This document shows, piece by piece, positions 7,325 through 62,938 of a stretch of DNA of 64,000 bases. The first letter of the stretch is position 1. Each line of letters begins with the position of its first letter. The DNA is from Eledone cirrhosa (lineage: Eukaryota): contig OZ024756.1 of NCBI GenBank assembly GCA_964016885.1, positions 12,586,001 to 12,650,000 on the forward strand, in the 5' to 3' direction. Under the pieces are notes generated by a model. The model did no database searches, was not told where the DNA came from, and was given only the letters and a program-made list of their open reading frames with translations. The position numbers and the translations under genes were made by a program.

Positions 7325-8092
7325 CGTGCGTACGTGTATGTATGTATGTATCAATAAATATAATATATACAAACACATATATATGTTATAACCGTCAAAA
7401 CGGCTTGAGCTCTGCCGTCGGGGTCATACTTTCTCCTATTACCCACTCTACTACCCTAAGTATTGAGTACTCTGGTGCGTTAGGGCCCACCTGGTTCCTT
7501 ACAACAACTCCTTCGTTTGTTATATTGTATATATATATATGAGTTTTTAACTTATCACATCCATAGCAAAGGAGAACTGGCTAGAAAAGTTGGTAACCAA
7601 CTTTGAAAGAATGTGTAATATTTACACACAATGAAGGAAAGAGGGAGAGAGAGAGAGAGAGTGTGAGAGAGAGTGTGTGTGTGTGAATGTGGGAGTGAGA
7701 GTGTGAGAGAGAGAGTGTGTGTGTGTGTGAATGTGGGAGTGAGAGAGAGAGAGAGAGGTGAATGTGAAAGTAAGAGAAAGAGGGTAAAAGTGAGAGAGTT
7801 TACATGTGTGAATGGAAGAAAAGGAGAAAGAAGAGACGAGTCTAACTCTTTCTCCCTCCCTCTCTCTAATATATATATATATATATATTTCTATACTTTT
7901 CATTTATATATATATAATCACACATAGTCGCCCAAAGTTAGAGACTTATTTGTAAACAGGTAGAGTTTACGATTCTCGGACAGAAGAAATACATTATCAA
8001 AGAGAAGAAGAAGGATACACACCGAAATATATAAAGGAATATCTTAAAAGATGTTTTTTGTGTGTTTTGACAGTTATTTGCCTGCATGAGAC

Positions 8093-9370
8093 ATGGAAAA
8101 TATCGTGGATTTAAAGAAAAAAATCAGGTCTGTTTTATTAAGTTCAAAACACGGCGTGAGAAAAAACATTTTTTTAAAAGAATATAAACATTTAACTGGT
8201 GAAGATATCGACATGGGAGAAACGGGATTTAAAACTTTAGAAGATTTTCTCAGATCGATTCCCGATACAGTGTTTATTTATGATGGATGTTACTTTGCTG
8301 TTGCGTGTAACAGCACAGTGCACCTGGAGAAATTAATACAGCAGCAAAAGTCGAAGTCCAAAGAGAAAACGAAAGCGATTTCATCAGGTCACCCTCCCAA
8401 TGTGGGACGACATTATATTCAGAACGACCCAAAACGGCGAGTTTATCGAAGCCGGTATGATAGGTTTTCTCGGGATAATGCTGATGATAATCAAATCACA
8501 CGAAGCGTATCGATGAAAGAGGTGAGCCCTGATTTAATATCAACAACACGTCCGTGTCGAAAGCAACAAGGCGTGAGAAAGCCAATCACTTCTGATAATT
8601 CAGCTATCGATGACCTACGGACAAAACTGTTATCGATACTGTATCAAGTTCCTGGCGGATTGAATGCTAAAGATTTACAAGAGAAATACAAGTCTGAGAC
8701 GGGTGGGTACATACCCTTAAAGGAATATGGTTACAAAACTTTGGAAGAACTGTTAATCAACTTCAGCATGTATCAAACCCGATGTATCAAACAAGGGTCG
8801 TTCTTTGTAGCTGTCGCACATGATAGAATGAATAAATGGCCAGAAAATAGACAATACGTTTCAACGCCAGACCTTCACACCACAGGGTATACGGCAGCTA
8901 ATAATGGACGGAAAGTTGTAATCCACAAAAGATTCGGTGAATTAAATCGATCTAGATTGATAGACAACCGTAATTATCACGATTTTCGTGTGTCGGAAGA
9001 CGGTCTTTCAGGAAAGTCTCGTCTCTGTATTAATGATATTAATTCACAAAATAGTAAGTTTCCTAGTTCAAACGGTGGTTGCCAGTGTCACCTAAAAGAA
9101 GATCATGTGTGTACAAATTGTAATAACAACCGTGTGCATCACCCGAACGAGATTCGTTTAGCAGGGCATGGTAGGAGGAAACGTAACAAGGAAATAAATA
9201 TACATCGAACTGTAACCCTCATTGACGAGTCACAACCTGGTAGTACACTCAAAATACAACACGGAAATCTTGGTCTCCAAGATCTTCGAATTTCTTTTCA
9301 AAATACACATTTAGATGACACTAACAGCGGAAATGTTGACAAAGTGAGACTAAAAACTGCTGTCATTTAA
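8093..9370 (+). CDS. double LOTUS (OST-HTH) domain protein, TDRD5/TDRD7-like N-terminus without Tudor domain
   Basis: LOTUS1 LKKKIRSVLLSSKHGV...EYKHLTGEDI...GFKTLEDFLRSIPDTV plus extension helix STVHLEKLIQQQKS. LOTUS2 LRTKLLSIL...YKSETGGYIPLKEYGYKTLEELL. Open for 425 codons; acceptor ttttgacag at 8073; ATG context gacATGG. Confidence 0.88.
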   Translation: MENIVDLKKKIRSVLLSSKHGVRKNIFLKEYKHLTGEDIDMGETGFKTLEDFLRSIPDTVFIYDGCYFAVACNSTVHLEKLIQQQKSKSKEKTKAISSGHPPNVGRHYIQNDPKRRVYRSRYDRFSRDNADDNQITRSVSMKEVSPDLISTTRPCRKQQGVRKPITSDNSAIDDLRTKLLSILYQVPGGLNAKDLQEKYKSETGGYIPLKEYGYKTLEELLINFSMYQTRCIKQGSFFVAVAHDRMNKWPENRQYVSTPDLHTTGYTAANNGRKVVIHKRFGELNRSRLIDNRNYHDFRVSEDGLSGKSRLCINDINSQNSKFPSSNGGCQCHLKEDHVCTNCNNNRVHHPNEIRLAGHGRRKRNKEINIHRTVTLIDESQPGSTLKIQHGNLGLQDLRISFQNTHLDDTNSGNVDKVRLKTAVI

Positions 9371-12933: not shown

Positions 12934-13399
12934 TTTGTCAGTGTTGAACAAATGAGCAACGATGGTTGCTAGACACTGTACGGCTTAATACGGGAAGTTT
13001 GTTTACAAACACACCGAGCATTATAATAAATGTTCGGTGAATCCATACGTACATATATATATGTGTGCACGTATTTATATATATATATATACATACTACT
13101 GTACGTCTGTATACATATGTGTATGTACGTGTACATACTTATATTTAAGTAACAGCCGTACTAAGAGTGAGAAATGAAATTTTGTTTCATTTTTTCCGTT
13201 TATATATATATATATAAATGGAAAAAATGAAATTTCATTTCTCACTCTTAGTACGGCTGTCACCTTAAATAGAAGTATGTACACGTACATACATATATGT
13301 GTACAGACGTATGTATATTATCGTTTTCGGTACGCCCGGCCGACTAACTCACTCGATATGCAAATTAGACTGCTCAGCCGTTAATATGCATAAGGAAAG

Positions 13400-15139: not shown

Positions 15140-18100
15140 ATAAAACCCAGTCTCTCACAATCAGTCATTATACCAATAAAACCCCTCACATTCAGTCATT
15201 ATACCAATAAAACAGTCTCTCACATTCAGTCATTATACCAATAAAACCCAGTCTCTCACATTCAGTCATTATACCAATAAAACCCCTCACATTCAGTCAT
15301 TATACCAATAAAACAGTCTCTCACATTCAGTCATTATACCAATAAAACCCAGTTTCTCACATTCACTCATTATACTAATAAAACAGTCTCTCACATTCAG
15401 TCATTATACCAATAAAACCCAGTCTCTCACATTCAGTCATTATACTAATAAAACCCAGTCTCTCACATTCAGTCATTATACCAATAAAACCCAGTCTCTC
15501 ACATTCAGTCATTATACCAATAAAACCCAGTCTCTCACATTCAGTCATTATACCAATAAAACCCAGTCTCTCACATTCAGTTATTATACTAATAAAACCC
15601 AGTCTCTCACATTCAGTCATTATACCAATAAAACCCAGTCTCTCACATTCAGTCATTATACCAATAAAACCTAGTCTCTCACATTCACTCATTATACTAA
15701 TAAAACAGTCTCTCACATTCAGTCATTATACCAATAAAACCCAGTCTCTCACATTCACTCATTATACCAATAAAACCCAGTCTCTCACATTCAGTCATTA
15801 TACTAATAAAACCCAGTCTCTCACATTCAGTCATTATACCAATAAAACAGTCTCTCACATTCAGTCATTATACTAATAAAACCCAGTCTCTCACATTCAG
15901 TCATTATACTAATAAAACCCAGTCTCTCACATTCAGTCATTATACTAATAAAACAGTCTCTCACATTCAGTCATTATACCAATAAAACCCAGTCTCTCAC
16001 ATTCAGTCATTATACTAATAAAACAGTCTCTCACATTCAGTCATTATACTAATAAAACCCAGTCTCTCACATTCAGTCATTATACCAATAAAACCCAGTC
16101 TCTCACATTCTGTCATTATACTAATAAAACAGTCTCTCACATTCAGTCATTATACTAATAAAACCCAGTCTCTCACATTCAGTCATTATACCAATAAAAC
16201 CCAGTCTCTCACATTCAGTCATTATACTAATAAAACAGTCTCTCACATTCAGTCATTATACCAATAAAACCCAGTCTCTCACATTCAGTCATTATACTAA
16301 TAAAACAGTCTCTCACATTCAGTCATTATACTAATAAAACCCAGTCTCTCACATTCAGTCATTATACTAAAAAAACCCAGTCTCTCACATTCAGTCATTA
16401 TACTAATAAAACAGTCTCTCACATTCAGTCATTATACTAATAAAACCCAGTCTCTCACATTCAGTCATTATACCAATAAAACCCGTCTCTCACATTCAGT
16501 CATTATACTAATAAAACCCAGTCTCTCACATTCAGTCATTATACCAATAAAACCCAGTCTCTCACATTCACTCATTATACCAATAAAACCCAGTCTCTCA
16601 CATTCAGTCATTATACTAATAAAACAGTCTCTCACATTCAGTCATTATACTAATAAAACCCAGTCTCTCACATTCAATCATTATACTAATAAAACCCAGT
16701 CTCTCACATTCAGTCATTATACTAATAAAACAGTCTCTCACATTCACTCATTATACCAATAAAACCCAGTCTCTCACATTCAGTCATTATACCAATAAAA
16801 CAGTCTCTCACATTCAGTCATTATACCAATAAAACCCAGTCTCTCACATTCAGTCATTATACCAATAAAACCCAGTCTCTCACATTCAGTCATTATACTA
16901 ATAAAACCAGTAATGTTATACTAATAAAGTACCAGTAATTCACATTCAGTCATTATACCAATAAAACAGTCTCTCACATTCACTCATTATACCAATAAAA
17001 CCCAGTCTCTCACATTCAGTCATTATACTAATAAAACAGTCTCTCACATTCAGTCATTATACTAATAAAACCCAGTCTCTCACATTCAATCATTATACTA
17101 ATAAAACCCAGTCTCTCACATTCAGTCATTATACCAATAAAACAGTCTCTCACATTCAGTCATTATACTAATAAAACCCAGTCTCTCACATTCACTCATT
17201 ATACCAATAAAACCCAGTCTCTCACATTCAGTCATTATACCAATAAAACCCAGTCTCTCACATTCACTCATTATACCAATAAAACCCAGTCTCTCACATT
17301 CAGTCATTATACTAATAAAACAGTCTCTCACATTCAGTCATTATACTAATAAAACCCAGTCTCTCACATTCAATCATTATACTAATAAAACCCAGTCTCT
17401 CACATTCAGTCATTATACTAATAAAACAGTCTCTCACATTCACTCATTATACCAATAAAACCCAGTTTCTCACATTCAGTCATTATACCAATAAAACAGT
17501 CTCTCACATTCAGTCATTATACCAATAAAACCCAGTCTCTCACATTCAGTCATTATACTAATAAAACCAGTAATGTTATACTAATAAAGTACCAGTAATT
17601 CACATTCAGTCATTATACCAATAAAACAGTCTCTCACATTCAGTCATTATACTAATAAAACCCAATCTCTCACATTCACTCATTATACCAATAAAACCCG
17701 TCTCTCACATTCAGTCATTATACTAATAAAACCCAGTCTCTCACATTCAGTCATTATACTAATAAAACCCAGTCTCTCACATTCACTCATTATACCAATA
17801 AAACCCAGTCTCTCACATTCAGTCATTATACTAATAAAACAGTCTCTCACATTCACTCATTATACCAATAAAACCCAGTCTCTCACATTCAGTCATTATA
17901 CTAATAAAACAGTCTCTCACATTCACTCATTATACCAATAAAACCCAGTCTCTCACATTCAGTCATTATACTAATAAAACAGTCTCTCACATTCACTCAT
18001 TATACTAATAAAACAGTCTCTCACATTCAGTCATTATACCAATAAAACCCAGTCTCTCACATTCAGTCATTATACTAATAAAACCCAGTCTCTCACATTC

Positions 18101-19553
18101 ACTCATTATACCAATAAAACCCAGTCTCTCACATTCACTCATTATACCAATAAAACCCAGTCTCTCACATTCAGTCATTATACCAATAAAACCCAGTCTC
18201 TCACATTCACTCATTATACCAATAAAACCCAGTCTCTCACATTCAGTCATTATACTAATAAAACAGTCTCTCACATTCAGTCATTATACCAATAAAACCC
18301 AGTCTCTCACATTCAGTCATTATACCAATAAAACAGTCTCTCACATTCAGTCATTATACCAATAAAACCCAGTCTCTCACATTCAGTCATTATACTAATA
18401 AAACCCAGTCTCTCACATTCACTCATTATACCAATAAAACCCAGTCTCTCACATTCAGTCATTATACTAATAAAACCCAGTCTCTCACATTCACTCATTA
18501 TACCAATAAAACCCAGTCTCTCACATTCAGTCATTATACCAATAAAACCCAGTCTCTCACATTCACTCATTATACTAATAAAACCCAGTCTCTCACATTC
18601 ACTCATTATACCAATAAAACCCAGTCTCTCACATTCAGTCATTATACCAATAAAACCCAGTCTCTCACATTCAGTCATTATACCAATAAAACCCAGTCTC
18701 TCACATTCACTCATTATACTAATAAAACCCAGTCTCTCACATTCAGTCATTATACCAATAAAACCCAGTCTCTCACATTCAGTCATTATACCAATAAAAC
18801 CCAGTCTCTCACATTCACTCATTATACTAATAAAACCCAGTCTCTCACATTCACTCATTATACCAATAAAACCCAGTCTCTCACATTCAGTCATTATACC
18901 AATATAACCCAGTCTCTCACATTCAGTCATTATACCAATAAAACCCAGTCTCTCACATTCACTCATTATACCAATAAAACCCAGTCTCTCACATTCAGTC
19001 ATTATACCAATAAAACCCAGTCTCTCACATTCACTCATTATACTAATAAAACCCAGTCTCTCACATTCACTCATTATACCAATAAAACCCAGTCTCTCAC
19101 ATTCACTCATTATACCAATAAAACAGTCTCTCACATTCAGTCATTATACCAATAAAACAGTCTCTCACATTCAGTCATTCGGAGGATTGGCAGTATCGGT
19201 AGAGGGTCGGACGCCATGCTTTCCAGCATAGTTACGTCCCTTTACGATCTGAGTTCAAATCCCGCCGAGGTTGACTTTGCCTTTCATCCTTACGGGGTCG
19301 ATAAAATAAAGTACCAGTAATGCACTGTGTAATTGCTGGCCTTGTGCCAAACGTAGAAACAATTATACTAATAAAAGCCAGTCTCTCACATTCAGTCATT
19401 ATACCAATAAAACAGTCACTCACATTCAGTCATTATACTAATAAAACCCAGTCTCTCACATTTACTCATTATACTAATAAAACCCAGTCTCTCACATTTA
19501 CTCATTATACCAATAAAACAGTCTCTCACATTCAGTCATTATACCAATAAAAC
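15140..19553. repeat. 36/34-bp satellite
   Basis: Unit cagtcattataccaataaaa(cc)cagtctctcacatt over about 4.4 kb. Confidence 0.99.
19180..19365 (+). mobile_element. SINE family A inserted in the satellite
   Basis: Near-full copy interrupting a monomer at catt|atac. Confidence 0.9.
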
Positions 19554-28772: not shown

Positions 28773-28967
28773 AGGAATTGGGTGCTGACCAGAAAACTAA
28801 GAGTTGAGAGAGGGTGGAAGAAGACACAGTCAAGTACCGGAGCTGCATTGTAATAATGTTTATATACAACTGTTTGTCTTGCAATGATACATATTTGCAA
28901 TCACTAGTGCTATAATAATGCATGTACAGCTACTAGTGACTTAATGATACACACATACAGTTAATAG

Positions 28968-31900
28968 TTCTGTAATGGTACATATACAGATACTAATGCT
29001 GTAATGGTACATATACAGTCACTAATGCTGTAATGGTACATATACAGATACTAATGCTGTAATGGTACATATACAGTCACTAATGCTGTAATGGTACATA
29101 TACAGATACTAATGCTGTAATGGTACATATACAGTCACTAATGCTGTAATGGTACATATACAGATACTAATGCTGTAATGGTACATATACAGATACTAAT
29201 GCTGTAATGGTACATATACAGTCACTAATGCTGTAATGGTACATATACAGATACTAATGCTGTAATGGTACATATACAGATACTAATGCTGTAATGGTAC
29301 ATGTACAGATACTAATGCTGTAATGGTACATATACAGATACTAATGCTGTAATGGTACATGTACAGATACTAATGCTGTAATGGTACATATACAGATACT
29401 AATGCTGTAATGGTACATATACAGTCACTAATGCTGTAATGGTACATATACAGTCACTAATGCTGTAATGGTACATATACAGTCACTAATGCTGTAATGG
29501 TACATATACAGTCACTAATGCTGTAATGGTACATATACAGTCACTAATGCTGTAATGGTACATATACAGATACTAATGCTGTAATGGTACATATACAGAT
29601 ACTAATGCTGTAATGGTACATATACAGATACTAATGCTGTAATGGTACATATACAGTCACTAATGCTGTAATGGTACATATACAGATACTAATGCTGTAA
29701 TGGTACATATACAGTCACTAATGCTGTAATGGTACATATACAGTCACTAATGCTGTAATGGTACATATACAGTCACTAATGCTGTAATGGTACATGTACA
29801 GATACTAATGCTGTAATGGTACATGTACAGATACTAATGCTGTAATGGTACATATACAGTCACTAATGCTGTAATGGTACATATACAGATACTAATGCTG
29901 TAATGGTACATGTACAGATACTAATGCTGTAATGGTACATGTACAGATACTAATGCTGTAATGGTACATATACAGTCACTAATGCTGTAATGGTACATAT
30001 ACAGATACTAATGCTGTAATGGTACATATACAGTCACTAATGCTGTAATGGTACATATACAGTCACTAATGCTGTAATGGTACATATACAGATACTAATG
30101 CTGTAATGGTACATATACAGATACTAGTGCTGTAATGGTACATATACAGATACTAATGCTGTAATGGTACATATACAGATACTAATGCTGTAATGGTACA
30201 TATACAGATACTAATGCTGTAATGGTACATATACAGATACTAATGCTGTAATGGTACATATACAGATACTAATGCTGTAATGGTACATGTACAGATACTA
30301 ATGCTGTAATGGTACATATACAGATACTAATGCTGTAATGGTACATATACAGTCACTAATGCTGTAATGGTACATATACAGTCACTAATGCTGTAATGGT
30401 ACATATACAGTCACTAATGCTGTAATGGTACATATACAGATACTAATGCTGTAATGGTACATATACAGATACTAATGCTGTAATGGTACATATACAGATA
30501 CTAATGCTGTAATGGTACATATACAGATACTAATGCTGTAATGGTACATATACAGTCACTAATGCTGTAATGGTACATATACAGTCACTAATGCTGTAAT
30601 GGTACATATACAGTCACTAATGCTGTAATGGTACATATACAGTCACTAATGCTGTAATGGTACATATACAGATACTAATGCTGTAATGGTACATATACAG
30701 ATACTAATGCTGTAATGGTACATATACAGATACTAATGCTGTAATGGTACATATACAGTCACTAATGCTGTAATGGTACATATACAGTCACTAATGCTGT
30801 AATGGTACATATACAGTCACTAATGCTGTAATGGTACATATACAGTCACTAATGCTGTAATGGTACATATACAGTCACTAATGCTGTAATGGTACATATA
30901 CAGATACTAATGCTGTAATGGTACATATACAGTCACTAATGCTGTAATGGTACATATACAGTCACTAATGCTGTAATGGTACATATACAGTCACTAATGC
31001 TGTAATGGTACATATACAGTCACTAATGCTGTAATGGTACATATACAGATACTAATGCTGTAATGGTACATATACAGTCACTAATGCTGTAATGGTACAT
31101 ATACAGTCACTAATGCTGTAATGGTACATATACAGTCACTAATGCTGTAATGGTACATATACAGTCACTAATGCTGTAATGGTACATATACAGTCACTAA
31201 TGCTGTAATGGTACATATACAGATACTAATGCTGTAATGGTACATATACAGATACTAATGCTGTAATGGTACATATACAGATACTAATGCTGTAATGGTA
31301 CATATACAGTCACTAATGCTGTAATGGTACATATACAGTCACTAATGCTGTAATGGTACATATACAGTCACTAATGCTGTAATGGTACATATACAGTCAC
31401 TAATGCTGTAATGGTACATATACAGTCACTAATGCTGTAATGGTACATATACAGATACTAATGCTGTAATGGTACATATACAGTCACTAATGCTGTAATG
31501 GTACATATACAGTCACTAATGCTGTAATGGTACATATACAGTCACTAATGCTGTAATGGTACATATACAGTCACTAATGCTGTAATGGTACATATACAGT
31601 CACTAATGCTGTAATGGTACATATACAGATACTAATGCTGTAATGGTACATATACAGATACTAATGCTGTAATGGTACATATACAGATACTAATGCTGTA
31701 ATGGTACATATACAGTCACTAATGCTGTAATGGTACATATACAGATACTAATGCTGTAATGGTACATATACAGATACTAATGCTGTAATGGTACATATAC
31801 AGTCACTAATGCTGTAATGGTACATATACAGTCACTAATGCTGTAATGGTACATATACAGTCACTAATGCTGTAATGGTACATATACAGATACTAATGCT

Positions 31901-32990
31901 GTAATGGTACATATACAGTCACTAATGCTGTAATGGTACATATACAGATACTAATGCTGTAATGGTACATATACAGTCACTAATGCTGTAATGGTACATA
32001 TACAGTCACTAATGCTGTAATGGTACATATACAGTCACTAATGCTGTAATGGTACATATACAGTCACTAATGCTGTAATGGTACATATACAGTCACTAAT
32101 GCTGTAATGGTACATATACAGATACTAATGCTGTAATGGTACATGTACAGATACTAATGCTGTAATGGTACATGTACAGATACTAATGCTGTAATGGTAC
32201 ATATACAGTCACTAATGCTGTAATGGTACATATACAGTCACTAATGCTGTAATGGTACATATACAGTCACTAATGCTGTAATGGTACATATACAGATACT
32301 AATGCTGTAATGGTACATATACAGATACTAATGCTGTAATGGTACATATACAGATACTAATGCTGTAATGGTACATATACAGATACTAATGCTGTAATGG
32401 TACATATACAGTCACTAATGCTGTAATGGTACATATACAGTCACTAATGCTGTAATGGTACATATACAGATACTAATGCTGTAATGGTACATATACAGAT
32501 ACTAATGCTGTAATGGTACATATACAGATACTAATGCTGTAATGGTACATATACAGATACTAATGCTGTAATGGTACATATACAGATACTAATGCTGTAA
32601 TGGTACATATACAGTCACTAATGCTGTAATGGTACATATACAGTCACTAATGCTGTAATGGTACATATACAGTCACTAATGCTGTAATGGTACATATACA
32701 GTCACTAATGCTGCAATGGTACATATACAGTCACTAATGCTGTAATGGTACATATACAGTCACTAATGCTGTAATGGTACATATACAGTCACTAATGCTG
32801 TAATGGTACATATACAGATACTAATGCTGTAATGGTACATATACAGTCACTAATGCTGTAATGGTACATATACAGTCACTAATGCTGTAATGGTACATAT
32901 ACAGATACTAATGCTGTAATGGTACATATACAGATACTAATGCTGTAATGGTACATATACAGTCACTAATGCTGTAATGGTACATATACA
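28968..32990. repeat. 29-bp satellite with two main monomer variants
   Basis: catatacag(at/tc)actaatgctgtaatggta over about 4 kb; diverged monomers continue to about 35670. Confidence 0.99.
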
Positions 32991-33634: not shown

Positions 33635-34214
33635 TAAAAATACGTATTTAAGAAAGCCACAACAATGCAAAGGGAAATCTCGAGGTAGGAAGTGAAATAT
33701 AGATAGGAAAAACAGGTGAAAGTGAAAATTGAGAGAGACAAAGATGAAAACAAAACAAAGGTAGAAGGGTTACCGTAGTAGAGATTTAATCCCAATATTT
33801 CGGGCTCACGCCCATCAACGGGGGAAAGTTCCAAAAGGGGGGGAACAGGCCAAGCGGAGAAAGTTGTGATGTCGTTAAGACAGGAATGCCGTTAAGGGGG
33901 GGAACAGGCCAAGCGGAGAAAGTTGTGATGTCGTTAAGACAGGAATGCCGTTGATAACGGCATTCCTGTCTTAACGACATCACAACTTTCTCCGCTTGGC
34001 CTGTTCCCCCCCTTTTGGAACTTTCCCCCGTTGATGGGCGCGAGCCCGAAATATTGGGATTAAATCTCTACTACGGTAACCCTTCTACCTTTGTTTTGTT
34101 TTCATCTTTGTCTCTCTCAATTTTCACTTTCACCTGTTTTTCCTATCTATCTTTCACTTCCTACCTCGAGATTTCCCTCTGCATTGTTGTGGCTTTCTTA
34201 AATACGTATTTTTA
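33635..34214. repeat. large fold-back palindrome
   Basis: About 260-bp near-perfect arms centred on 33953-33955; the left arm has an extra duplication of about 58 bp. Confidence 0.97.
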
Positions 34215-35572: not shown

Positions 35573-36975
35573 TGCATATATATATACAGTCACTAGAGGT
35601 GTAATGGTAAATATACAGCTACTGTGATACACACACACATACAGTTACTAATGCTATAATGATACATGCCTAAATAACCATTGATAAATTTGATAGGTTT
35701 CGGACAGTATTGGCCCAGGCCATGTCTAACTTAATAGCACCACATTAAAGGCTATGTTTGTTTAAGCAGCATAAACTGTGGATGTTGCAACAGACTGAAA
35801 TATTTTAGCCAAGAGGGAAGCGTGGACAGTTTTGATAAAATGGTTGAGTAGGATGAGGTTGATGTCAACAGCTGTGCCTTCCTCAAATGACCTATTTTGG
35901 GGGGAAAATGTATTTTGATTTTTAACATTGAAATAAAAGCGCTTGGCATATGTAGCAGGGAATAGAGAGTTGTATAGTAGGGAATAGAGAGTTGTATAGT
36001 AGGGCATAGGGAGTTGTATAGTAGGTCATAGGGAGTTAACAGCAATTGTGATACTGTGGTCCTTGTAAGACTTTTTCAACATTATATAACTATAATGATC
36101 CACAGAAGACAGCCAATGAGCAGGAATTGTCCTTGTGCTTGTGTCTTACAAGTTTTCTCTTCCCTTTTTTCTGATGTGTTTCTTTATAATATTTCCTAGT
36201 AATCACACAATCACACAGCCCCATTTTGAAATCTATTTTATATATATATATATATATATGAAGATCAAAGTTGCACAAAAGCTGATTGCTTTCATAACTA
36301 TATATATCATCATGTATTTATAAATATATATATCTATATATTAATAGACGGTATTAGTTGCATGCCTTCAAAATACTTTAAGTTTCATTGACATTTTTTG
36401 TTGAGGACAGTAATTCACCCTTATCAAAGCTGAGACGAAGTCATCAGATAGGACCAAAGATCTTCAATCGTTCTCCCACTCACTCGATGTTTTAACTAAG
36501 CTAGTATCATTACGATACCAACCCAACTGAAAACAGAGTGCACAATAATACGTTAAATAGTGAGGACGATTTTGTGTGGGTAGAGAATGAGATTCCTTCT
36601 TCCTGGACAAATTATTTATATATTTATATATATATATATATATATATAAGTATTAAAGTTTCCGTTGAAATTTGTACATACACACATATGTACATTTGTA
36701 AGTGAATATACACACATTTATACACATACCCTTACTATATTTCCTTATTTTATTTTTATATATCTCTTGCATTACTTTTATTTATATTTTTTGCTTTAAA
36801 CTTTTGCCTTTCTTGAGGAGATTTTTCAAATATTTCACTATGTTTTACATTGCCTTGTCTGAGTCCTGACAAACGAATGAGGACGTTTCTTGTATTCGTC
36901 TTATTCGGGAAACCTCTGGTAATGAGGTAATTATATTGTATTGTTTATTATACATTATATATATATATATATATA

Positions 36976-37271
36976 TAAAGAAAAAGAGATGAAATTGAAA
37001 ATGCAACTGGAGTCTTATTTTTTTTTTAAATATATATATTTATTTGGTTCCTTTACCGGTTTCGCAGTTCTTCTGCTTTTCAAAAGGTGAGTTGAGATGG
37101 AGGGTCTGTGGTTTTTCTCACAGATGTGAGAAAAACCACAGACCCTCCATCTCAACTCACCTTTTGAAAAGCAGAAGAACTGCGAAACCGGTAAAGGAAC
37201 CAAATAAATATATATATTTAAAAAAAAAATAAGACTCCAGTTGCATTTTCAATTTCATCTCTTTTTCTTTA
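36976..37271. repeat. perfect fold-back palindrome (147-bp arms, 2-nt loop)
   Basis: Centre at 37123-37124. Confidence 0.98.
37160..37197 (+). ncRNA. minimal type I hammerhead ribozyme, U3-A8 core variant (mirror copy at 37050-37087, -)
   Basis: CCTT / TTGAAAA / GCAG-AAGAA-CTGC / GAAA-CCGG-TA / AAGG. Confidence 0.72.
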
Positions 37272-37333
37272 CACTTTCACTCGTGTAGGACACCTCGGTT
37301 ATTTTTCATTTTGTAAAAAAACCTCACTTTCTA

Positions 37334-37377
<44 letters not shown>

Positions 37378-38035
37378 TGTTGGTTCCACAACAAATTAGC
37401 AAACCATACTTGAGGACGCACGTTTCGCTGAACATATTTTCAACCCATGTATGGCTGTGGTGAGAAAGGAAATGTATATGAGCTGGAGCTGGCTGGATTT
37501 TGTGCAACAGATGAGGGTAGTTTAGTGACAAAGGAGACGACTTAAATTAGACTGTTGCAGGAGGTGGGGCGGTTCGTTTGAGTTATTTCATTCAGGGGTT
37601 ACATTTATGGTTATGCTGGGTCTTACTAGTTACATAAAAGATACTTCAAAGTGAAACATGGGTAAGTTTAGGAAGCTATATGATGCATGTGGGTTATAGA
37701 ATTATTAAGGTAACAAGTCAGAAGGGAATTGAAAAAAGTGAGTTTATTAGGGGCTAATAAATTACTAAGGTAGCATTCAGTCATTCTTTTCTTTTTATTT
37801 TCTTCTTTCTTCCACTTTTTGCCTTTTACCTCACTTCTTTCAATTCCCTTCTGACTTGTTACCTTAATAATTCTAAAACCCACATACATTGTATAGCTTC
37901 CTAAACATGTCCATCTTTCACTATACATATTTCACAAAGCTTCAAGAAAACTACATCTTATTTATATATATATATCCATATGCAGTTGACAGCCAAGGGA
38001 AAAGAATACTCAATACCAAAGAAGAGTTTAAATAT

Positions 38036-38187
38036 TCATTTTATTGAGGCTAAATAGTGAGTCTTGTTATTCTGGAGTCTCACCTGCTTCTCACAAGGTC
38101 ATCAGACAAGAAATTGTCTGATGACTTTGTGAGAAGCAGGTGAGACTCCAGAGTTGCAAGACTTACTATTTAGCCTCAATAAAATGA
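38036..38187. repeat. fold-back palindrome (74-bp arms, GAAA loop)
   Basis: Centre at 38110-38113; each arm carries CTGATGA on its own strand. Confidence 0.93.
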
Positions 38188-38251
<64 letters not shown>

Positions 38252-40139: not shown

Positions 40140-44487
<4,348 letters not shown>

Positions 44488-44819: not shown

Positions 44820-47105
44820 TTAGGACAGATAGCCCAACGGCTTCATCATATCTACAGGTTTGGGCATTTTATGACAGACTGAAGAATTTGATTTAGCATT
44901 CATGTTCAATGTGGACATATTATTATTATGCTCGTGATGATGGCGGTGGTGGTGATGGTGGTGGTGGTGGTGGTGGTGGCCCATCGATGAAGGCATCCCC
45001 GTATGTATTGGCCGTGTAAAGGCAGGCATGTCAGATGTGTTAGGAAGTGCCAGATGTGTTAAGCTATTTTGCTTGCTGTGTGGGACCTCAAATTCAGCGT
45101 TATACGCAGTCTGTTGGACTTCGTTTGCTTTGTCGCAAACCTTGGCATGTTTTGGTAAAGTAAGTTGAGAGAACATCAAAGAGCAGTATGCACAGCGGAA
45201 ACATTTTAGCTTCTGGAAGTTTCTAACGTGAATATATAGAAATTTAGTTTTACTAAAAGCCATCCCACAATGGCTGCATTTAAATAACTTGGGCACTGTT
45301 GAATCTTCATTCTCCATCTCAGCGAGAGTTTCGCTATCCTCTTCATCTGAACAGGAAATGTTCCATGAGGGATCCTCGTTTGGAATTCTGTTTGAATTTT
45401 GATGATGTAACTTGTGATGGGAGGCAGAACTGCCTGAAAGTTTATTTGACTCCATTAACATCTCTATTTGTCTTTCTTCATCTATTAAAGACGAAGATCT
45501 CGATGTTTCTAGTTCTGATACTTTGCCATCTTTTTCACAACATGTTTGCTGCATTTGCTGCTTCCTACCAGATGACAGCTCTAAAAGACTCTGAGTTAGG
45601 TTGAATGATGCTCCAAGGTTCTGTTGGTGGTCATCAACATGTTTTTCCAAAGCAGAGATATCAGAGAATATTTGTTGACAGTGAGAACATTCATAGGGTT
45701 TATATCGACTCATGTCAAGCAAGTGGAGGAGGTATTTGATTTTGGTATACAACGTTTTATTACAGTGTTTACAGTAAAACGGTTTCTCTCCAAGATGAAT
45801 CTTCCAATGACGTGTGCACGTAGGTTTAGTAGCAAAGTCTTCATAACACAATTCACAATGAAATGGTTTCTTTGTATGTTTTCTTTCGTGATTAACAAGA
45901 GCCTCTGATGATAGAAATACTTTACAACAAATATTGCAACTGTAAGATTTTCCTGGGTTACGCCATGCGGCTGGCGATGAAGGAGTTATTGATAAGTTGT
46001 AATGTGCTTTGCGATGCACAGCCAAACTGCTAGATGTTGAAAACAGTTTGAAACAATGTTCACACTGGTGTCGCTTCTCCCCTGTGTGGGATCGTGTGTG
46101 CACACCAAGACTGCTGGAAGTGGTGAAACATTTCTCACAATAGGCACACTTGTAAGGTCTTTCACCTGTGTGAGATCGTAAATGCACAGTGAGGCTGCCA
46201 GATGTGATGAACATCTTGTCGCAGAATTTACACTGGAAACGCTTCTCTCCGGTGTGAGTCTTAATGTGCACAAGAAGACTTCCAGAGGTTGTGAAAAGTT
46301 TTTCACAAAACTTGCACTGGTAATTCTTCTCACCTGTATGGGAACGAAGATGTACTAAAAGACTGCCGGAAGTTGTGAAGAACTTCTCGCACAGATCACA
46401 TCGATATCTTTTCTCACCTGTGTGTGTGCGTTTGTGCACTAAAAGACTTCCTGATGTGGAGAACATCTTGTGACAGGTCTCACATTCATAGCTTTTCTCA
46501 CCTGTGTGTGTACGAAGGTGTATATTCAAACTACTAGCAGTCGACAAGAGCTTGTCGCAAACATTACACTTGAATGTCATTCCATAATGGGTCTTAAGAT
46601 GCCTTGTTAATTGAGCAGATTTTGAAAATGTTTTCTGACAATAATCACACTGGATCGATCCATAATGTACAGTGCCAAGCATAGAGTGGCATTTCATATG
46701 GCGCTGCAACAGACTTGGCTGGGAGAAGATTTTCTGGCAATATTTACACCTGATTGGGTTCTCTTTCATATCATGCTTGCTGGCCCCATGTTGGCTATTT
46801 GAAGTCGGGATGTTCTTGTACATATGTTCCGAAGCAATATTGCTACCAGAATCCATCATTCTTTTGTGAACAAACCCTTGTTCGGACAGAGGCAGTAACA
46901 TATCACTGTTTACTTCCGAGTGACTGACACCACCATCCAACCATTTCCTTCGTTGATTGTCCATCATTGGAGTTGTAGAACCGATATGTTCTCGGAAACT
47001 AATCGGACCGTCACTGTACATAGTGTGATCTGGGAAAGCGTGGTCACTTGGTACAGAATTGCTTGTATCATTTAGCGGGGGCACTGACACTTCACAATCA
47101 GCCAT
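44820..47105 (-). CDS. C2H2 zinc-finger protein, about 13 canonical plus 2 atypical fingers, C-terminal His tract; single coding exon
   Basis: Repeated CxxC-x12-HxxxH with HTGEK linkers; ATG context aaaATGG; splice acceptor (tttcag|) at 47223; AATAAA on the - strand near 44585 and 44600. Confidence 0.96.
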
Positions 47106-47264
47106 TTTGGTTAGAACAGCAGAAAACAGATCAATATTTAAACAGAGATCATCTCACATATCAAGTAAATCTCTTCAAAGTTTTCGAACAAATCACTGTT
47201 GATGTCAGCTGACAGCAAAATCCTGAAATTAGATTAAAAAAAAAATTAAACAGTGGTAGTAATA

Positions 47265-57302: not shown

Positions 57303-60300
57303 CCAGTTATCCCAGCAATGGCTGGACATGTCCTTACAGTCACAGACTGGTCACTACTCTGCCAGTTATACCAGCAATGGTTGGACATGTCCTTACAATC
57401 ACAGACTGGTCACTACTCTGCCAGTTATCCCAGCAATGGTTGGACATGTCCTTACAATCACAGACTGGTCACTACTCTGCCAGTTATCCCTGCAATGGTT
57501 GGACATGTCCTTACAGTCACTGACTGGTCACTACTCTGCCACTAATCTCAGCAATGGTTAGACATGTCCTTACAGTCACAGACTGGTCACTACTCTGCCA
57601 GTTATCCCAGCAATGGTTGGACATGTCCTTACAGTCACAGACTGGTCACTACTCTGCCAGTTATCCCAGCAATGGTTAGACATGTCCTTACAATCACAGA
57701 CTGGTCATTATTCTGCCAGTTATCCCTGCAGTGGCTAGACATGACCTTACAATCACAGACTGGTCATTATTCTGCCAGTTATCCCAGCAATGGTTGGACA
57801 TGTCTTTACAGTCACAGATTGGTCACTTCTCTGCCACTAATCTCAGCAATGGTTGGACATGTCCTTACAGTCACAGACTGGTCACTACTCTGCCACTAAT
57901 CTCAGCAATGGTTGGACATGTCCTTACAGTCACAGACTGGTCACTACTCTGCCACTAATCTCAGCAATGGTTGGACATGTCCTTACAGTCACAGACTGGT
58001 CACTACTCTGCCACTAATCTCAGCAATGGTTGGACATGTCCTTACAGTCATAGACTGGTCACTACTCTGCCACTAATCTCAGCAATGGTTGGACATGTCC
58101 TTACAGTCACAGACTGGTCACTACTCTGCCAGTTATCCTAGCAATGGTTGGACATGTCTTTACAGTCACAGATTGGTCACTACTCTGCCACTAATCTCAG
58201 CAATGGTTGGACATGTCCTTACAGTCACAGACTGGTCACTACTCTGCCAGTTATCCCAGCAATGGTTGGACATGTCCTTACAGTCACAGACTGGTCACTA
58301 CTCTGCCAGTTATCCCAGCAATGGTTGGACATGTCCTTACAGTCACAAACTGGTCACTACTCTGCCAGTTATCCCAGCAATGGTTGGACATGTCCTTACA
58401 GTCACATACTGGTCACTACTTTGCCAGTTATCCCAGCAATGGTTGGACATGTCATTACAGTCACTGACTGGTCACTACTCTGCCAGTTATCCCAGCAATG
58501 GTTAGACATGTCCTTACAGTCACAGACTGGTCACTACTCTGCCAGTTATCCCTGCAGTGGCTAGACATGACCTTACAATCACAGACTGGTCATTATTCTG
58601 CCAGTTATACCAGCAATGGTTGGACATGTCCTTACAGTCACAGACTGGTCACTACTCTGCCACTAATCTCAGCAATGGTTGGACATGTCCTTACAATCAC
58701 AGACTGGTCACTACTCTGCCAGTTATCCCAGCAATGGTTGGACATGTCCTTACAATCACAGACTGGTCACTACTCTGCCAGTTATCCCTGCAATGGTTGG
58801 ACATGTCCTTACAGTCACTGACTGGTCACTACTCTGCCACTAATCTCAGCAATGGTTAGACATGTCCTTACAGTCACAGACTGGTCACTACTCTGCCAGT
58901 TATCCCAGCAATGGTTGGACATGTCCTTACAGTCACAGACTGGTCACTACTCTGCCAGTTATCCCAGCAATGGTTAGACATGTCCTTACAATCACAGACT
59001 GGTCATTATTCTGCCAGTTATCCCTGCAGTGGCTAGACATGACCTTACAATCACAGACTGGTCATTATTCTGCCAGTTATCCCAGCAATGGTTGGACATG
59101 TCTTTACAGTCACAGATTGGTCACTTCTCTGCCACTAATCTCAGCAATGGTTGGACATGTCCTTACAGTCACAGACTGGTCACTACTCTGCCACTAATCT
59201 CAGCAATGGTTGGACATGTCCTTACAGTCACAGACTGGTCACTACTCTGCCACTAATCTCAGCAATGGTTGGACATGTCCTTACAGTCACAGACTGGTCA
59301 CTACTCTGCCACTAATCTCAGCAATGGTTGGACATGTCCTTACAGTCATAGACTGGTCACTACTCTGCCACTAATCTCAGCAATGGTTGGACATGTCCTT
59401 ACAGTCACAGACTGGTCACTACTCTGCCAGTTATCCTAGCAATGGTTGGACATGTCTTTACAGTCACAGATTGGTCACTACTCTGCCACTAATCTCAGCA
59501 ATGGTTGGACATGTCCTTACAGTCACAGACTGGTCACTACTCTGCCAGTTATCCCAGCAATGGTTGGACATGTCCTTACAGTCACAGACTGGTCACTACT
59601 CTGCCAGTTATCCCAGCAATGGTTGGACATGTCCTTACAGTCACAAACTGGTCACTACTCTGCCAGTTATCCCAGCAATGGTTGGACATGTCCTTACAGT
59701 CACATACTGGTCACTACTTTGCCAGTTATCCCAGCAATGGTTGGACATGTCATTACAGTCACTGACTGGTCACTACTCTGCCAGTTATCCCAGCAATGGT
59801 TAGACATGTCCTTACAGTCACAGACTGGTCACTACTCTGCCAGTTATCCCTGCAGTGGCTAGACATGACCTTACAATCACAGACTGGTCATTATTCTGCC
59901 AGTTATACCAGCAATGGTTGGACATGTCCTTACAGTCACAGACTGGTCACTACTCTGCCACTAATCTCAGCAATGGTTGGACATGTCCTTACAGTCACAG
60001 ACTGGTCACTACTCTGCCAGTTATCCCAGCAATGGTTAGACATGTCCTTACAGTCACAGACTGGTCACTACTCTGCCAGTTATCCCAGCAATGGTTAGAC
60101 ATGTCCTTACAGTCACAGACTGGTCACTACTCTGCCACTAATCTCAGCAATGGTTGGACATGTCCTTACAGTCACATACTGGTCACTACTCTGCCAGTTA
60201 TCCCAGCAATGGTTGGACATGTCATTACAGTCACAGACTGGTCACTACTCTGCCAGTTATCCCAGCAATGGTTAGACATGTCCTTACAGTCACAGACTGG

Positions 60301-62637
60301 TCACTACTCTGCCAGTTATCCCAGCAATGGTTAGACATGTCCTTACAGTCACAGACTGGTCACTACTCTGCCACTAATCTCAGCAATGGTTGGATATGTC
60401 CTTACAGTCACATACTGGTCACTACTCTGCCAGTTATCCCAGCAATGGTTGGACATGTCATTACAGTCACAGACTGGTCACTACTCTGCCAGTTATCCCA
60501 GCAATGGTTAGACATGTCCTTACAATCACAGACTGGTCATTATTCTGCCAGTTATACCAGCAATGGTTGGACATGTCCTTACAGTCACTACTCTGCCAGT
60601 TATCCTAGCAATGGTTGGACATGTCATTACAATCACAGACTGGTCACTACTCTGCCACTAATCTCAGCAATGGTTGGACATGTCCTTACAGTCACAGACT
60701 GGTCACTACTCTGCCAGTTATCCCAGCAATGGTTGGACATGTCCTTACAGTCATAGACTGGTCACTACTCTGCCAGTTATCCCAGCAATGGTTGGACATG
60801 TCCTTACAGCCATAGACTGGTCACTACTCTGCCAGTTATCCCAGCAATGGTTGGACATGTCCTTACAGCCATAGACTGGTCACTACTCTGCCAGTTATCC
60901 CAGCAATGGTTGGACATGTCCTTACAATCACAGACTGGTCACTACTCTGCCAGTTATCCCAGCAATGGTTGGACATGTCCTTACAGCCATAGACTGGTCA
61001 CTACTCTGCCAGTTATCCCAGCAATGGTTGGACATGTCCTTACAGCCATAGACTGGTCACTACTCTGCCAGTTATCCCAGCAATGGTTGGACATGTCCTT
61101 ACAGCCATAGACTGGTCACTACTCTGCCACTAATCTCAGCAATGGTTGGACATGTCCTTACAATCATAGACTGGTCACTACTCTGCCAGTTATCTCTGCA
61201 ATGGTTGGACATGTCCTTACAGTCACAGACTGGTCACTACTCTGCCAGTTATCCCAGCAATGGTTGGACATGTCCTTACAGCCATAGACTGGTCACTACT
61301 CTGCCACTAATCTCAGCAATGGTTGGACATGTCCTTACAGCCATAGACTGGTCACTACTCTGCCAGTTATCCCAGCAATGGTTGGACATGTCCTTACAAT
61401 CACAGACTGGTCACTACTCTGCCAGTTATCCCAGCAATGGTTGGACATGTCCTTACAGCCATAGACTGGTCACTACTCTGCCAGTTATCCCAGCAATGGT
61501 TGGACATGTCCTTACAGCCATAGACTGGTCACTACTCTGCCAGTTATCCCAGCAATGGTTGGACATGTTTTTACAGTCACAGACTGGTCACTACTCTGCC
61601 ACTAATCTCAGCAATGGTTGGACATGTCATTACAATCACAGACTGGTCACTACTCTGCCAGTTATCCCAGCAATGGTTGGACATGTCCTTACAGCCATAG
61701 ACTGGTCACTACTCTGCCAGTTATCCCAGCAATGGTTGGACATGTCCTTACAGCCATAGACTGGTCACTACTCTGCCAGTTATCCCAGCAATGGTTGGAC
61801 ATGTCCTTACAGCCATAGACTGGTCACTACTCTGCCACTAATCTCAGCAATGGTTGGACATGTCCTTACAGTCACAGACTGGTCACTACTCTGCCACTAA
61901 TCTCAGCAATGGTTGGACATGTCCTTACAGTCACAGACTGGTCACTACTCTGCCACTAATCTCAGCAATGGTTGGACATGTCATTACAATCACAGACTGG
62001 TCACTACTCTGCCACTAATCTCAGCAATGGTTGGACATGTCATTACAATCACAGACTGGTCACTACTCTGCCAGTTATCCCAGCAATGGTTGGACATGTC
62101 CTTACAGCCATAGACTGGTCACTACTCTGCCAGTTATCCCTGCAATGGTTGGACATGTCCTTACAATCACAGACTGGTCACTACTCTGCCAGTTATCCCA
62201 GCAATGGTTGGACATGTCCTTACAGCCATAGACTGGTCACTACTCTGCCAGTTATCCCAGCAATGGTTGGACATGTCCTTACAGCCATAGACTGGTCACT
62301 ACTCTGCCAGTTATCCCTGCAATGGTTGGACATGTCCTTACAATCACAGACTGGTCACTACTCTGCCAGTAATCCCAGCAATGGTTGGACATGTCCTTAC
62401 AGCCATAGACTGGTCACTACTCTGCCAGTTATCCCAGCAATGGTTGGACATGTCCTTACAGCCATAGACTGGTCACTACTCTGCCAGTTATCCCTGCAAT
62501 GGTTGGACATGTCCTTACAATCACAGACTGGTCACTACTCTGCCAGTAATCCCAGCAATGGTTGGACATGTCCTTACAATCACAGACTGGTCACTACTCT
62601 GCCAGTTATCCCAGCAATGGCTGGACATGTCCTTACA
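57303..62637. repeat. 59-bp satellite with a 1298-bp (22-monomer) higher-order duplication
   Basis: Unit ccagttatcccagcaatggttggacatgtccttacagtcacagactggtcactactctg; identical ORF translations are offset by exactly 1298 bp. Confidence 0.99.
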
Positions 62638-62938
62638 GACACATTTTATTGTGGTGCCTACGCTAGGGAAGTTGTCATCTCTTTGGTATAGTTCTCCCTG
62701 GTCCTTTGTTTGGCAGGTTTTCTACGACAGGATGACCTTCCTATCATCAACCTCTTTACAGAGTGTACTGGGTGTGGTTATCAACTGGATCACCATACAT
62801 ACTGTTTTAGCTGTTCCAGCCATCCAGCTGAGGCCATGCTGGGCCATGGGCAAGACTAAATCAAAACGGGTTTTTGTGAAATATCAGTACGTAGAGTTGT
62901 TGTGTGAAGAAGAATTCACCCATCCAATGAACTGTACA

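What the first reader, a model, noticed from the sequence alone, without database searches (positions are those of the whole stretch)
37050..37197. Mirror pair of minimal hammerhead ribozymes with a compensatory U3-A8 core inside a perfect palindrome
Seen: 37160-37197 folds as stem I CCUU/AAGG, core UUGAAAA, stem II GCAG/CUGC, GAAA, palindromic CCGG and a GUA cleavage triplet (predicted cut after 37193). An exact copy lies on the - strand. Established: the core is normally CUGAnGA with a C3-G8 tertiary pair that tolerates U3-A8, and Penelope-type minimal hammerheads have palindromic stem III and act as dimers. Inference: the double change is compensatory, so the family kept an active variant that a CTGAnGA search would miss. 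A read-through transcript would form a 147-bp dsRNA hairpin that masks the ribozyme.
Basis: partly seen in the sequence, partly recalled or inferred. Interest (0 to 1): 0.75.

Follow-up and report, generated by a model that had tools for sequence, protein, structure and literature searches.

The report
Penelope insertion with U3-A8 minimal hammerhead
This palindrome is a short, two-armed copy of the end of a very abundant Penelope-type jumping gene, and each arm carries a predicted self-cutting RNA motif whose swapped core base pair is normal for this family and already published for such elements, so it is a new example of a known thing.

Summary
In detail: a 147-bp perfect palindrome (36976-37271) carries a type I minimal hammerhead motif with a U3-A8 core on each strand. 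It is one 5'-truncated insertion of a Penelope-like retroelement (RT, CX4CxxC linker, GIY-YIG) into (TA)n. The core pattern has 12,652 exact genomic matches. U3-A8 is fixed in the family (84 of 84 sampled arms; no C3-G8 copy with this stem II). A sister family at about 55% RT identity keeps it, with compensatory changes in stems I and II, and an unrelated family has it too, so it is not decay. The mirror layout is an insertion by-product: 23 of 24 head-to-head pairs have one tailed and one tail-less arm. U3-A8 and opposite-strand pairs are published for Penelope elements (PMC4209133), and this scan noted similar cases on other DNA. Cleavage is untested and probably weak: a U3-A17 pair is predicted to trap the cut site, and 46 of 100 arms begin upstream at the predicted transcription start, so their templates were uncut. 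Extras: a small excess of 5' ends at the cut site, and a predicted splice donor overlapping it.

The parts
36956..36977 (.). (TA)n target microsatellite, left flank; overlaps the arm end by a TA microhomology
36976..37122 (-). Inverted, tail-less arm: pLTR copy from the predicted transcription start to the family's short 3' terminus
   Evidence: 38 of 100 sampled arms end at or within a few bases of this terminus
37050..37087 (-). Mirror copy of the U3-A8 minimal hammerhead motif
37121..37124 (.). Head-to-head junction (2-nt CA overlap of the arms), at the predicted transcription start, about 30 nt downstream of a TATA-like box that full-length copies have and this copy lacks
   Evidence: 46 of 100 arms begin at 37119-37127; start site inferred, no RNA data
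37121..37336 (+). Forward arm: 3' part of the pLTR plus tail; in full-length copies this is the 5' UTR, followed about 25 nt later by the ORF1 ATG
37160..37197 (+). Type I minimal hammerhead motif, U3 (37164)-A8 (37169) core, palindromic helix III, A17 at 37193; predicted cut after 37193
   Evidence: cleavage not tested
37191..37288 (+). Predicted 5' UTR intron: donor GTAAAG overlapping G16.2-U16.1-A17, pyrimidine tract, acceptor TAG
   Evidence: sequence only; no precisely spliced genomic copy found; unproven
37272..37336 (+). Tail present on one arm only (about 65 nt), between the two fixed 3' termini; both termini lie at internal TA tracts
37335..37354 (.). (TA)n target microsatellite, right flank

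Best explanation
The palindrome is a promoterless, two-armed insertion of the end repeat (pLTR) of an abundant Penelope-like retroelement, likely made when the element's enzyme cut a (TA)n repeat on both strands and copied uncut element RNA from each broken end; each arm carries the family's inherited U3-A8 minimal hammerhead motif, which is predicted to cut only weakly. Shown: family identity, architecture, fixed U3-A8, conservation in a sister family, one tailed plus one tail-less arm, 5' ends clustered 30 nt behind a TATA-like box. Inferred: (1) both DNA ends primed reverse transcription, at the two internal start sites that define the tail, each at a TA tract able to pair with the target; (2) both cDNAs ran to the 5' end of a pLTR-initiated transcript and were joined head to head; (3) in the active element the ribozyme needs a second copy (tandem pLTR or another RNA) to build helix III, probably with protein help, and cuts rarely because U3 can pair with A17; (4) this genomic copy is a neutral relic.
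For: Full-length relatives: pLTR-ORF1 (400 aa)-minus-1 overlap at T TTT TTA-ORF2 (775 codons; RVT_1 E 1.3e-6, just under Pfam's cut-off; GIY-YIG E 2.1e-6, above it)-3' UTR-pLTR, unit about 4.7 kb. First 100 of 14,873 anchor matches: 60 end at the tail end, 38 at or near the short end, 2 elsewhere; 23 of 24 opposed neighbours within 5 kb are one short plus one tailed; 46 begin at 37119-37127. 16 of 17 informative pairs share the subfamily allele (shuffled mean 0.48, max 0.80 in 500). U3-A8 in 84 of 84 arms with both positions called; 0 C3-G8 copies with this stem II. Sister family (RT 55% identical): core identical at 17-18 of 17-18 positions in 5 of 6 copies and 17 of 18 in the sixth, flanks 34-66%, two pairs changed on both sides. 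Other families: 16,677 matches (control 193); first 100 counted by eye: 83 C3-G8, 13 U3-A8, 1 C3-A8, 3 U3-G8. Both-strand cleavage and extension, two internal RT starts, a protein-assisted ribozyme and uncut RNA as the main substrate are reported for the Anolis element (PMC11167929). U3-A17 pair probability 0.56, -6.4 vs -4.7 kcal/mol, analogous to the proposed C3-G17 trap (PMC3884650).
Against: No cleavage or RNA data for this family. The outer stem I pair (C37160-G37197) is broken without compensation in about half of the family and in 7 of 9 aligned rows, leaving 3 bp. In a fold of the predicted 215-nt transcript stem I has only about 4% probability. An older related family shows mixed states in 8 listed copies, by eye 3 U3-A8, 4 U3-G8, 1 C3-A8. 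Conservation could partly reflect a splice donor or protein site. The covariation rests on a handful of families; the Fisher p of 1e-12 counts copies, not events. The RT tree separates the C3-G8 pair (100/100) but does not resolve or securely root the U3-A8 families, and two of those motifs were read by eye from single or few copies.
Confidence: 0.8

Rival explanations
1. The motif has a hammerhead ancestry but no longer cuts; the sequence is kept as a splice donor, protein-binding or RT-pausing structure in the 5' UTR.
For: U3-A17 trap and weak stem I; GTAAAG or GTAGGT donor-like sequence at the same position in two unrelated U3-A8 families; 46 of 100 arms derive from uncut RNA against 3 of 100 ending near the cut site; ribozyme mutants did not impair insertion in vitro (PMC11167929).
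Against: All catalytic-core positions, not only the GT, are kept in the sister family while flanks diverge, with compensatory stem changes; 7 of 13 unambiguous TA-flanked 5' ends in 37192-37196 fall exactly at 37194 (counted by eye; p 0.007); no precisely spliced copy.
Confidence: 0.25
2. The mirror arrangement is functional: read-through RNA forms a long hairpin that masks the ribozyme or feeds editing and silencing.
For: Read-through fold has 146 pairs, -248.7 kcal/mol. In one run of unrecorded kind (X5), 33 of 54 listed changes on the pLTR are A>G or T>C against 5 of 29 in X1 (p 1.7e-4), a hint of dsRNA editing somewhere in the family.
Against: This copy lacks the TATA-like box. Arms of 23 pairs differ at 86 of 3,741 compared positions and share a rare variant at only 2 sites, so symmetry decays. 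Core positions in inserted arms mutate like flanks (18 of 1,109, against 2.5% and 1.5%). X5 is another sample than X1 and not on record as RNA.
Confidence: 0.08
3. The inverted arm arose by fold-back or template switching of one cDNA, or by later DNA rearrangement, rather than priming from both ends.
For: Both window arms share the rare A at 37251 (2 of 100 arms; about 98% of laid depth reads G); short overlaps and small duplications occur at junctions.
Against: The tail-less arm stops at one fixed site, and either arm can be the longer one; tail-less single copies also occur; a fixed second terminus matches the two RT starts reported in vitro.
Confidence: 0.15
4. U3 and A8 are two chance decay mutations, or the palindrome is an assembly artefact.
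For: C>T and G>A are the two commonest rare changes in dead copies (56 and 38 of 328); one double mutant appears among C3-G8-family matches. The window's own junction was not checked with reads.
Against: 12,652 matches of the core pattern, 0 C3-G8 with this stem II; same asymmetric architecture at 23 other loci.
Confidence: 0.02

Closest known systems
Minimal hammerheads (min-HHR) in pLTRs of metazoan Penelope-like elements, including the U3-A8 variant of Schistosoma mansoni Cercyon elements (Cervera and de la Pena 2014, PMC4209133; parts 1-2 of 4 read, 2 supplementary files term-searched, 1 not searchable)
   Same: Type I, short helix I, G10.1-C11.1, palindromic helix III implying a dimer, place in the pLTR, thousands of truncated copies, opposite-strand pairs 100-700 bp apart, U3-A8 covariation (about 1,300 hits there).
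   Different: Here stem II is 4 bp, the usual extra nucleotide between A9 and G10.1 is absent, and N17 is A, which allows a U3-A17 pair. A predicted intron starts at the 3' side of the motif; in Drosophila virilis the intron ends at its 5' side.
Neptune/Nematis-type EN+ Penelope-like elements (Craig et al. 2021, PMC8557442; passages only)
   Same: RT then CX2-5CxxC linker then GIY-YIG; pLTRs; inverted 5'-truncated copy; tail at one end; (TA)n targets; optional ORF1 separated by a frameshift; start site and 5' UTR intron in the pLTR are described for other PLEs.
   Different: Tail about 65 nt rather than 30-40; clade (Neptune or Nematis) not resolved here.
PAc (Poseidon) of Anolis carolinensis (Frangieh et al. 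2024, PMC11167929; parts 1-2 of 4 read)
   Same: Two fixed 3' termini flanking a tail, AT-rich targets, uncut RNA as main template.
   Different: PAc has C3-G8, one ORF starting inside the ribozyme, and RT starts reported as not homologous to the target; here both termini lie at TA tracts matching the (TA)n target and the ribozyme is in the 5' UTR.
Natural U3-A8 hammerheads (Perreault et al. 2011, PMC3088659; passages only)
   Same: Same 3/8 covariation, stated there to be active in vitro.
   Different: The passages seen do not concern Penelope elements; this motif cannot close helix III as a monomer.

Membership tests
EN+ Penelope-like element | RT followed by C-terminal GIY-YIG endonuclease | tested here: met
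   In full-length relatives, not in the window copy: RVT_1 E 1.3e-6 (28.7 bits, cut-off 29.6), GIY-YIG E 2.1e-6
EN+ Penelope-like element | Partial-tandem pLTRs, inverted 5'-truncated copy, one-sided tail | tested here: met
   Two direct copies of the motif 4.6-5.1 kb apart in 6 of 8 long loci; 23 of 24 opposed pairs one tailed, one short
Neptune/Nematis type | CX2-5CxxC linker before the endonuclease and (TA)n targeting | tested here: met
   CX4CxxC in ORF2; TA flanks
Neptune/Nematis type | RT phylogeny with reference elements | not tested
   No named reference PLE proteins were fetched; trees hold only this genome's elements
Minimal type I hammerhead | Core N3 U G A N N8 A ... G A A A ... 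U H with a Watson-Crick 3/8 pair | tested here: met
   U3-A8; 9 of 9 rows
Minimal type I hammerhead | Helices I and II supported by covariation | tested here: met
   Two pairs changed on both sides between families; outer helix I pair broken in 7 of 9 rows; 9 related rows only
Minimal type I hammerhead | Palindromic helix III for dimer formation | tested here: met
   ACCGGU self-duplex -8.3 kcal/mol; monomer loop of 2 nt not foldable. Actual dimer not shown
Minimal type I hammerhead | Extra nucleotide between A9 and G10.1 (usual in PLE min-HHRs) | tested here: not met
   Absent here and in the second U3-A8 family, present in the main C3-G8 families; a common trait, not a catalytic requirement
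Hammerhead ribozyme | Site-specific self-cleavage after N17 | not testable with these tools
   Only an indirect excess of genomic 5' ends at 37194
Rfam hammerhead families | Covariance-model match | tested here: not met
   None among the 150 listed of 170 hits at E<=5
Non-LTR retrozyme | Non-coding tandem monomers with one hammerhead each | tested here: not met
   No tandem array at the locus; the motif belongs to a coding 4.7-kb unit

The most novel reading that the evidence does not exclude
U3-A8/A17 hammerheads of Penelope elements are a built-in switch: the cut site sits on the 5' splice donor of the 5' UTR intron and is trapped by a U3-A17 pair, so splicing (mRNA), cleavage and staying whole (template for reverse transcription) are exclusive fates; the genome keeps a record of rare in vivo cleavage as insertions that begin exactly at the cut, about one for every sixteen that begin at the transcription start.
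Probability: 0.15. Interest if true: 0.55.

Novelty: new member of a known kind. Interest (0 to 1): 0.27.

Why it matters
As found, it matters modestly. It adds family-level comparative support that the U3-A8 core is selected in Penelope elements, and it shows that a CTGAnGA search would miss more than twelve thousand motifs in this genome. The large copy set gives countable footprints of a poorly understood insertion mechanism: two fixed 3' termini at TA tracts, one per arm, and 5' ends at the predicted start site. If the excess of ends at the cut site and the overlap with a splice donor are real, the family offers a direct test of the open question of what Penelope hammerheads do.

Tried and rejected
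Rfam: no hammerhead among the 150 listed of 170 hits. C3-G8 relative with the same stem II: 0; C3-G8 with the CCGG helix III and any stem II: 3 matches, control 144. Precisely spliced genomic copy: none; the single match keeps the donor and looks like a microhomology deletion; no joint across the predicted intron in laid contigs. Cap-derived extra G at 5' junctions: no clear signal in the 100 listed of 1,322 matches, not claimed. Selection on inserted copies: none seen. Expression: no RNA holder listed; this is no evidence either way. Runs X4 and X6 (other organism codes) gave 10 and 6 contigs, near-identical or low-complexity, useless for covariation. Endonuclease-domain tree had no strongly supported branch. 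The primary kinetic paper on 3/8 exchanges (recalled: Przybilski and Hammann 2007) is not held, so the size of the U3-A8 rate penalty is unread. Literature searches: 'hammerhead' + 'U3-A8' gave only PMC4209133; C3U/G8A/compensatory gave 0; Penelope-like/hammerhead/intron/splice site/Neptune gave 8 papers, 7 listed, of which I read parts or passages of three and saw no donor overlapping the cut site in those parts; that is not proof of absence from print. One supplementary file of PMC4209133 and its figures could not be seen and may show similar motifs. Bio-preprint 10.64898/2026.07.22.740005: two passages only, no U3-A8. No protein-database or structure searches were run.

Full report
OBSERVATION. 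Two 147-nt arms, 36976-37122 and 37125-37271, are fully complementary and lie between (TA)n runs at 36956-36977 and 37335-37354. 37160-37197 holds helix I (4 bp), the core U3 U4 G5 A6 A7 A8 A9, helix II (4 bp, G10.1-C11.1), GAAA, a palindromic ACCGGU and A17 at 37193; the mirror copy is 37087-37050. A scan of the window for hammerhead-like motifs with any Watson-Crick 3/8 pair gave these two and one poor match. The 38-mer is not unusually stable (z -0.94) and Rfam lists no hammerhead among 150 shown of 170 hits, as expected for a minimal motif.

WHAT IT BELONGS TO. The window lies in a 3.0-Gb genome (G000; the repeats look animal-like, not tested further). The forward arm matches a large young family (62 matches from 40 scored of 498 candidates); the 25-nt core pattern has 12,652 exact matches, control 0. 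Longer copies lead upstream through a 1.2-kb 3' UTR to a GIY-YIG endonuclease and RT. Full-length copies read pLTR, ORF1 (400 aa), a minus-1 overlap with the slippery-site-like T TTT TTA, ORF2 (775 codons: RT, CX4CxxC linker, GIY-YIG), 3' UTR, pLTR; both ORFs are open in 3 of 8 long loci. This is a Penelope-like element of Neptune/Nematis type as described in PMC8557442 (passages); the clade was not resolved. In the 5' pLTR the motif lies about 170 nt before the ORF1 ATG, so it is non-coding.

HOW THE PALINDROME AROSE. I took the first 100 of 14,873 matches to an anchor downstream of the ribozyme (contig C1, first 27 Mb; all 100 recovered). 3' ends are bimodal: 60 at the tail end, 38 at or near a site about 65 nt earlier, 2 elsewhere. 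Both termini lie at internal TA tracts. Of 24 opposed neighbours within 5 kb, 23 have one tailed and one tail-less arm; the 24th looks like two separate insertions. Arms share the subfamily allele in 16 of 17 informative pairs (shuffled mean 0.48) but share a rare variant at only 2 sites and differ at 86 of 3,741 positions: one source, then independent decay. The window's perfect symmetry therefore most likely means youth; both its arms do carry one rare base (37251). 5' ends cluster sharply: 46 of 100 at 37119-37127, 17 beyond the reference, 11 further upstream, 26 between 37128 and 37231. The cluster lies 29-30 nt behind a TATA-like box, a spacing kept in the sister family, with a CCAAT box upstream; I infer a transcription start. 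The Anolis enzyme cuts and extends both strands, starts at two internal sites that define the tail, and uses mostly uncut RNA (PMC11167929, parts 1-2). Inference: each broken DNA end primed one cDNA, both ran to the RNA 5' end, and they were joined head to head. Opposite-strand pairs and inverted truncated copies are already described.

IS U3-A8 COMPENSATORY? Within the family it is fixed: 84 of 84 arms with both positions called (one C at position 3 among 85), 0 C3-G8 copies with this helix II. A sister family (RT 55% identical; 17 of 100 listed matches have its helix II type, by eye, all U3-A8) keeps the whole core while flanks fall to 34-66% identity, with both-sided changes in one helix I and one helix II pair. 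More distant relatives (47-49%) carry C3-G8 (read by eye; tree). An unrelated Penelope family with another endonuclease type also has U3-A8 with a different helix II. Among the first 100 of 16,677 other minimal motifs (control 193) I count 83 C3-G8, 13 U3-A8, 1 C3-A8 and 3 U3-G8; these are a few families, not independent events. Against: an older related family shows 3 U3-A8, 4 U3-G8 and 1 C3-A8 in 8 listed copies; the outer helix I pair is broken in about half of the family. Inserted copies mutate in the core as in flanks, so any selection acts on source elements only. The variant is published: about 1,300 U3-A8 motifs in Schistosoma Penelope elements (PMC4209133) and natural examples said to be active in vitro (PMC3088659, passage).

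DOES IT CUT? Untested. A monomer cannot close helix III; ACCGGU self-pairs at -8.3 kcal/mol, so a dimer is needed, and the mirror copy cannot supply it because it is antisense. The lowest-energy monomer fold pairs U3 with A17 (probability 0.56), the analogue of the C3-G17 trap proposed for slow hammerheads (PMC3884650, passages). Published minimal motifs cut poorly or need protein. Most templates were uncut: minus-strand counts of TA-flanked 5' ends are 463 at the start site and 28 at the cut site; 3 of 100 sampled arms end at 37192-37196. Yet among the 100 listed of 110 matches (61 distinct loci by eye), 13 junctions are unambiguous and 7 fall exactly at 37194, the first base after the predicted cut (p 0.007 against five equal positions). 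A second cluster at the 3' strand of helix II (9 of 34 loci) shows that structure-related stalls and TA microhomology can also make such ends, so this is a hint only.

SPLICE OVERLAP. G16.2-U16.1-A17 begin GTAAAG, followed by a pyrimidine tract and TAG at 37286-37288; the second U3-A8 family has GTAGGT at the same place and a branch-like CTAAC before TAG in one copy. Every hammerhead of this type has GT here, and no spliced copy was found, so the intron is a prediction.

READ-THROUGH HAIRPIN. It would form (146 pairs), but this copy lacks the promoter and nothing shows that it is transcribed. One run of unrecorded kind shows an A>G/T>C excess on the pLTR, including A17 at about 2%; it is another sample than the comparison run, 22 rows were not shown, and it may reflect editing of family hairpins or something else.

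VERDICT. Real, correctly read, and largely ordinary: a new member of a known kind. Earlier notes of this scan reached similar readings on other DNA; they were seen after my own tests and are not independent support. Interest 0.27.

Noticed in passing
L184:980-4419 (G000:C2), also L181, L183: Full-length copies have two overlapping ORFs joined by a predicted minus-1 frameshift at T TTT TTA; both ORFs are open in 3 of 8 long loci. ORF1 has no Pfam match under E 0.1.
   Followed up: partly
L105:620-942, run X5: 33 of 54 listed changes are A>G or T>C against 5 of 29 in run X1, including the A17 position; possible ADAR-type editing of family dsRNA, run kind not on record.
   Followed up: partly
L206, L212, L188 (motif at about 1500): A second, unrelated Penelope family with a U3-A8 minimal hammerhead, A17, no 9/10.1 bulge and a donor-like GTAGGT over the cut site.
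   Followed up: partly
L242, L253, L255: Older related family with mixed 3/8 states, including U3-G8 in 4 of 8 listed copies; could be a wobble intermediate or decay.
   Followed up: no
L221:4870-4910, L029: Related family (47% RT identity) with a C3-G8 motif, 5-bp helix I, palindromic AGTACT and a helix II lacking G10.1-C11.1 (read by eye).
   Followed up: no
window 33635-34214: Second long palindrome (260-nt arms, 99%) with a duplicated 59-nt unit at the centre and a hammerhead-like remnant near 34020-34055 that lacks part of the core.
   Followed up: no
window 38029-38194, 37650-37922, 13146-13269: Further fold-back repeats; 38029-38194 contains CTGATGA without a following GAAA, and a similar stretch lies at about 36420-36460 on the minus strand.
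   Followed up: no
window 44820-47153 (-), 8090-9370 (+), 222-1025 (-): Open frames for a multi-C2H2 zinc-finger protein, a LOTUS/OST-HTH protein and a hAT transposase C-terminus.
   Followed up: no
window 15140-19179, 28951-32990, 40141-44487, 57303-62643: Long tandem arrays with 36-, 29-, 2- and 59-nt units.
   Followed up: no
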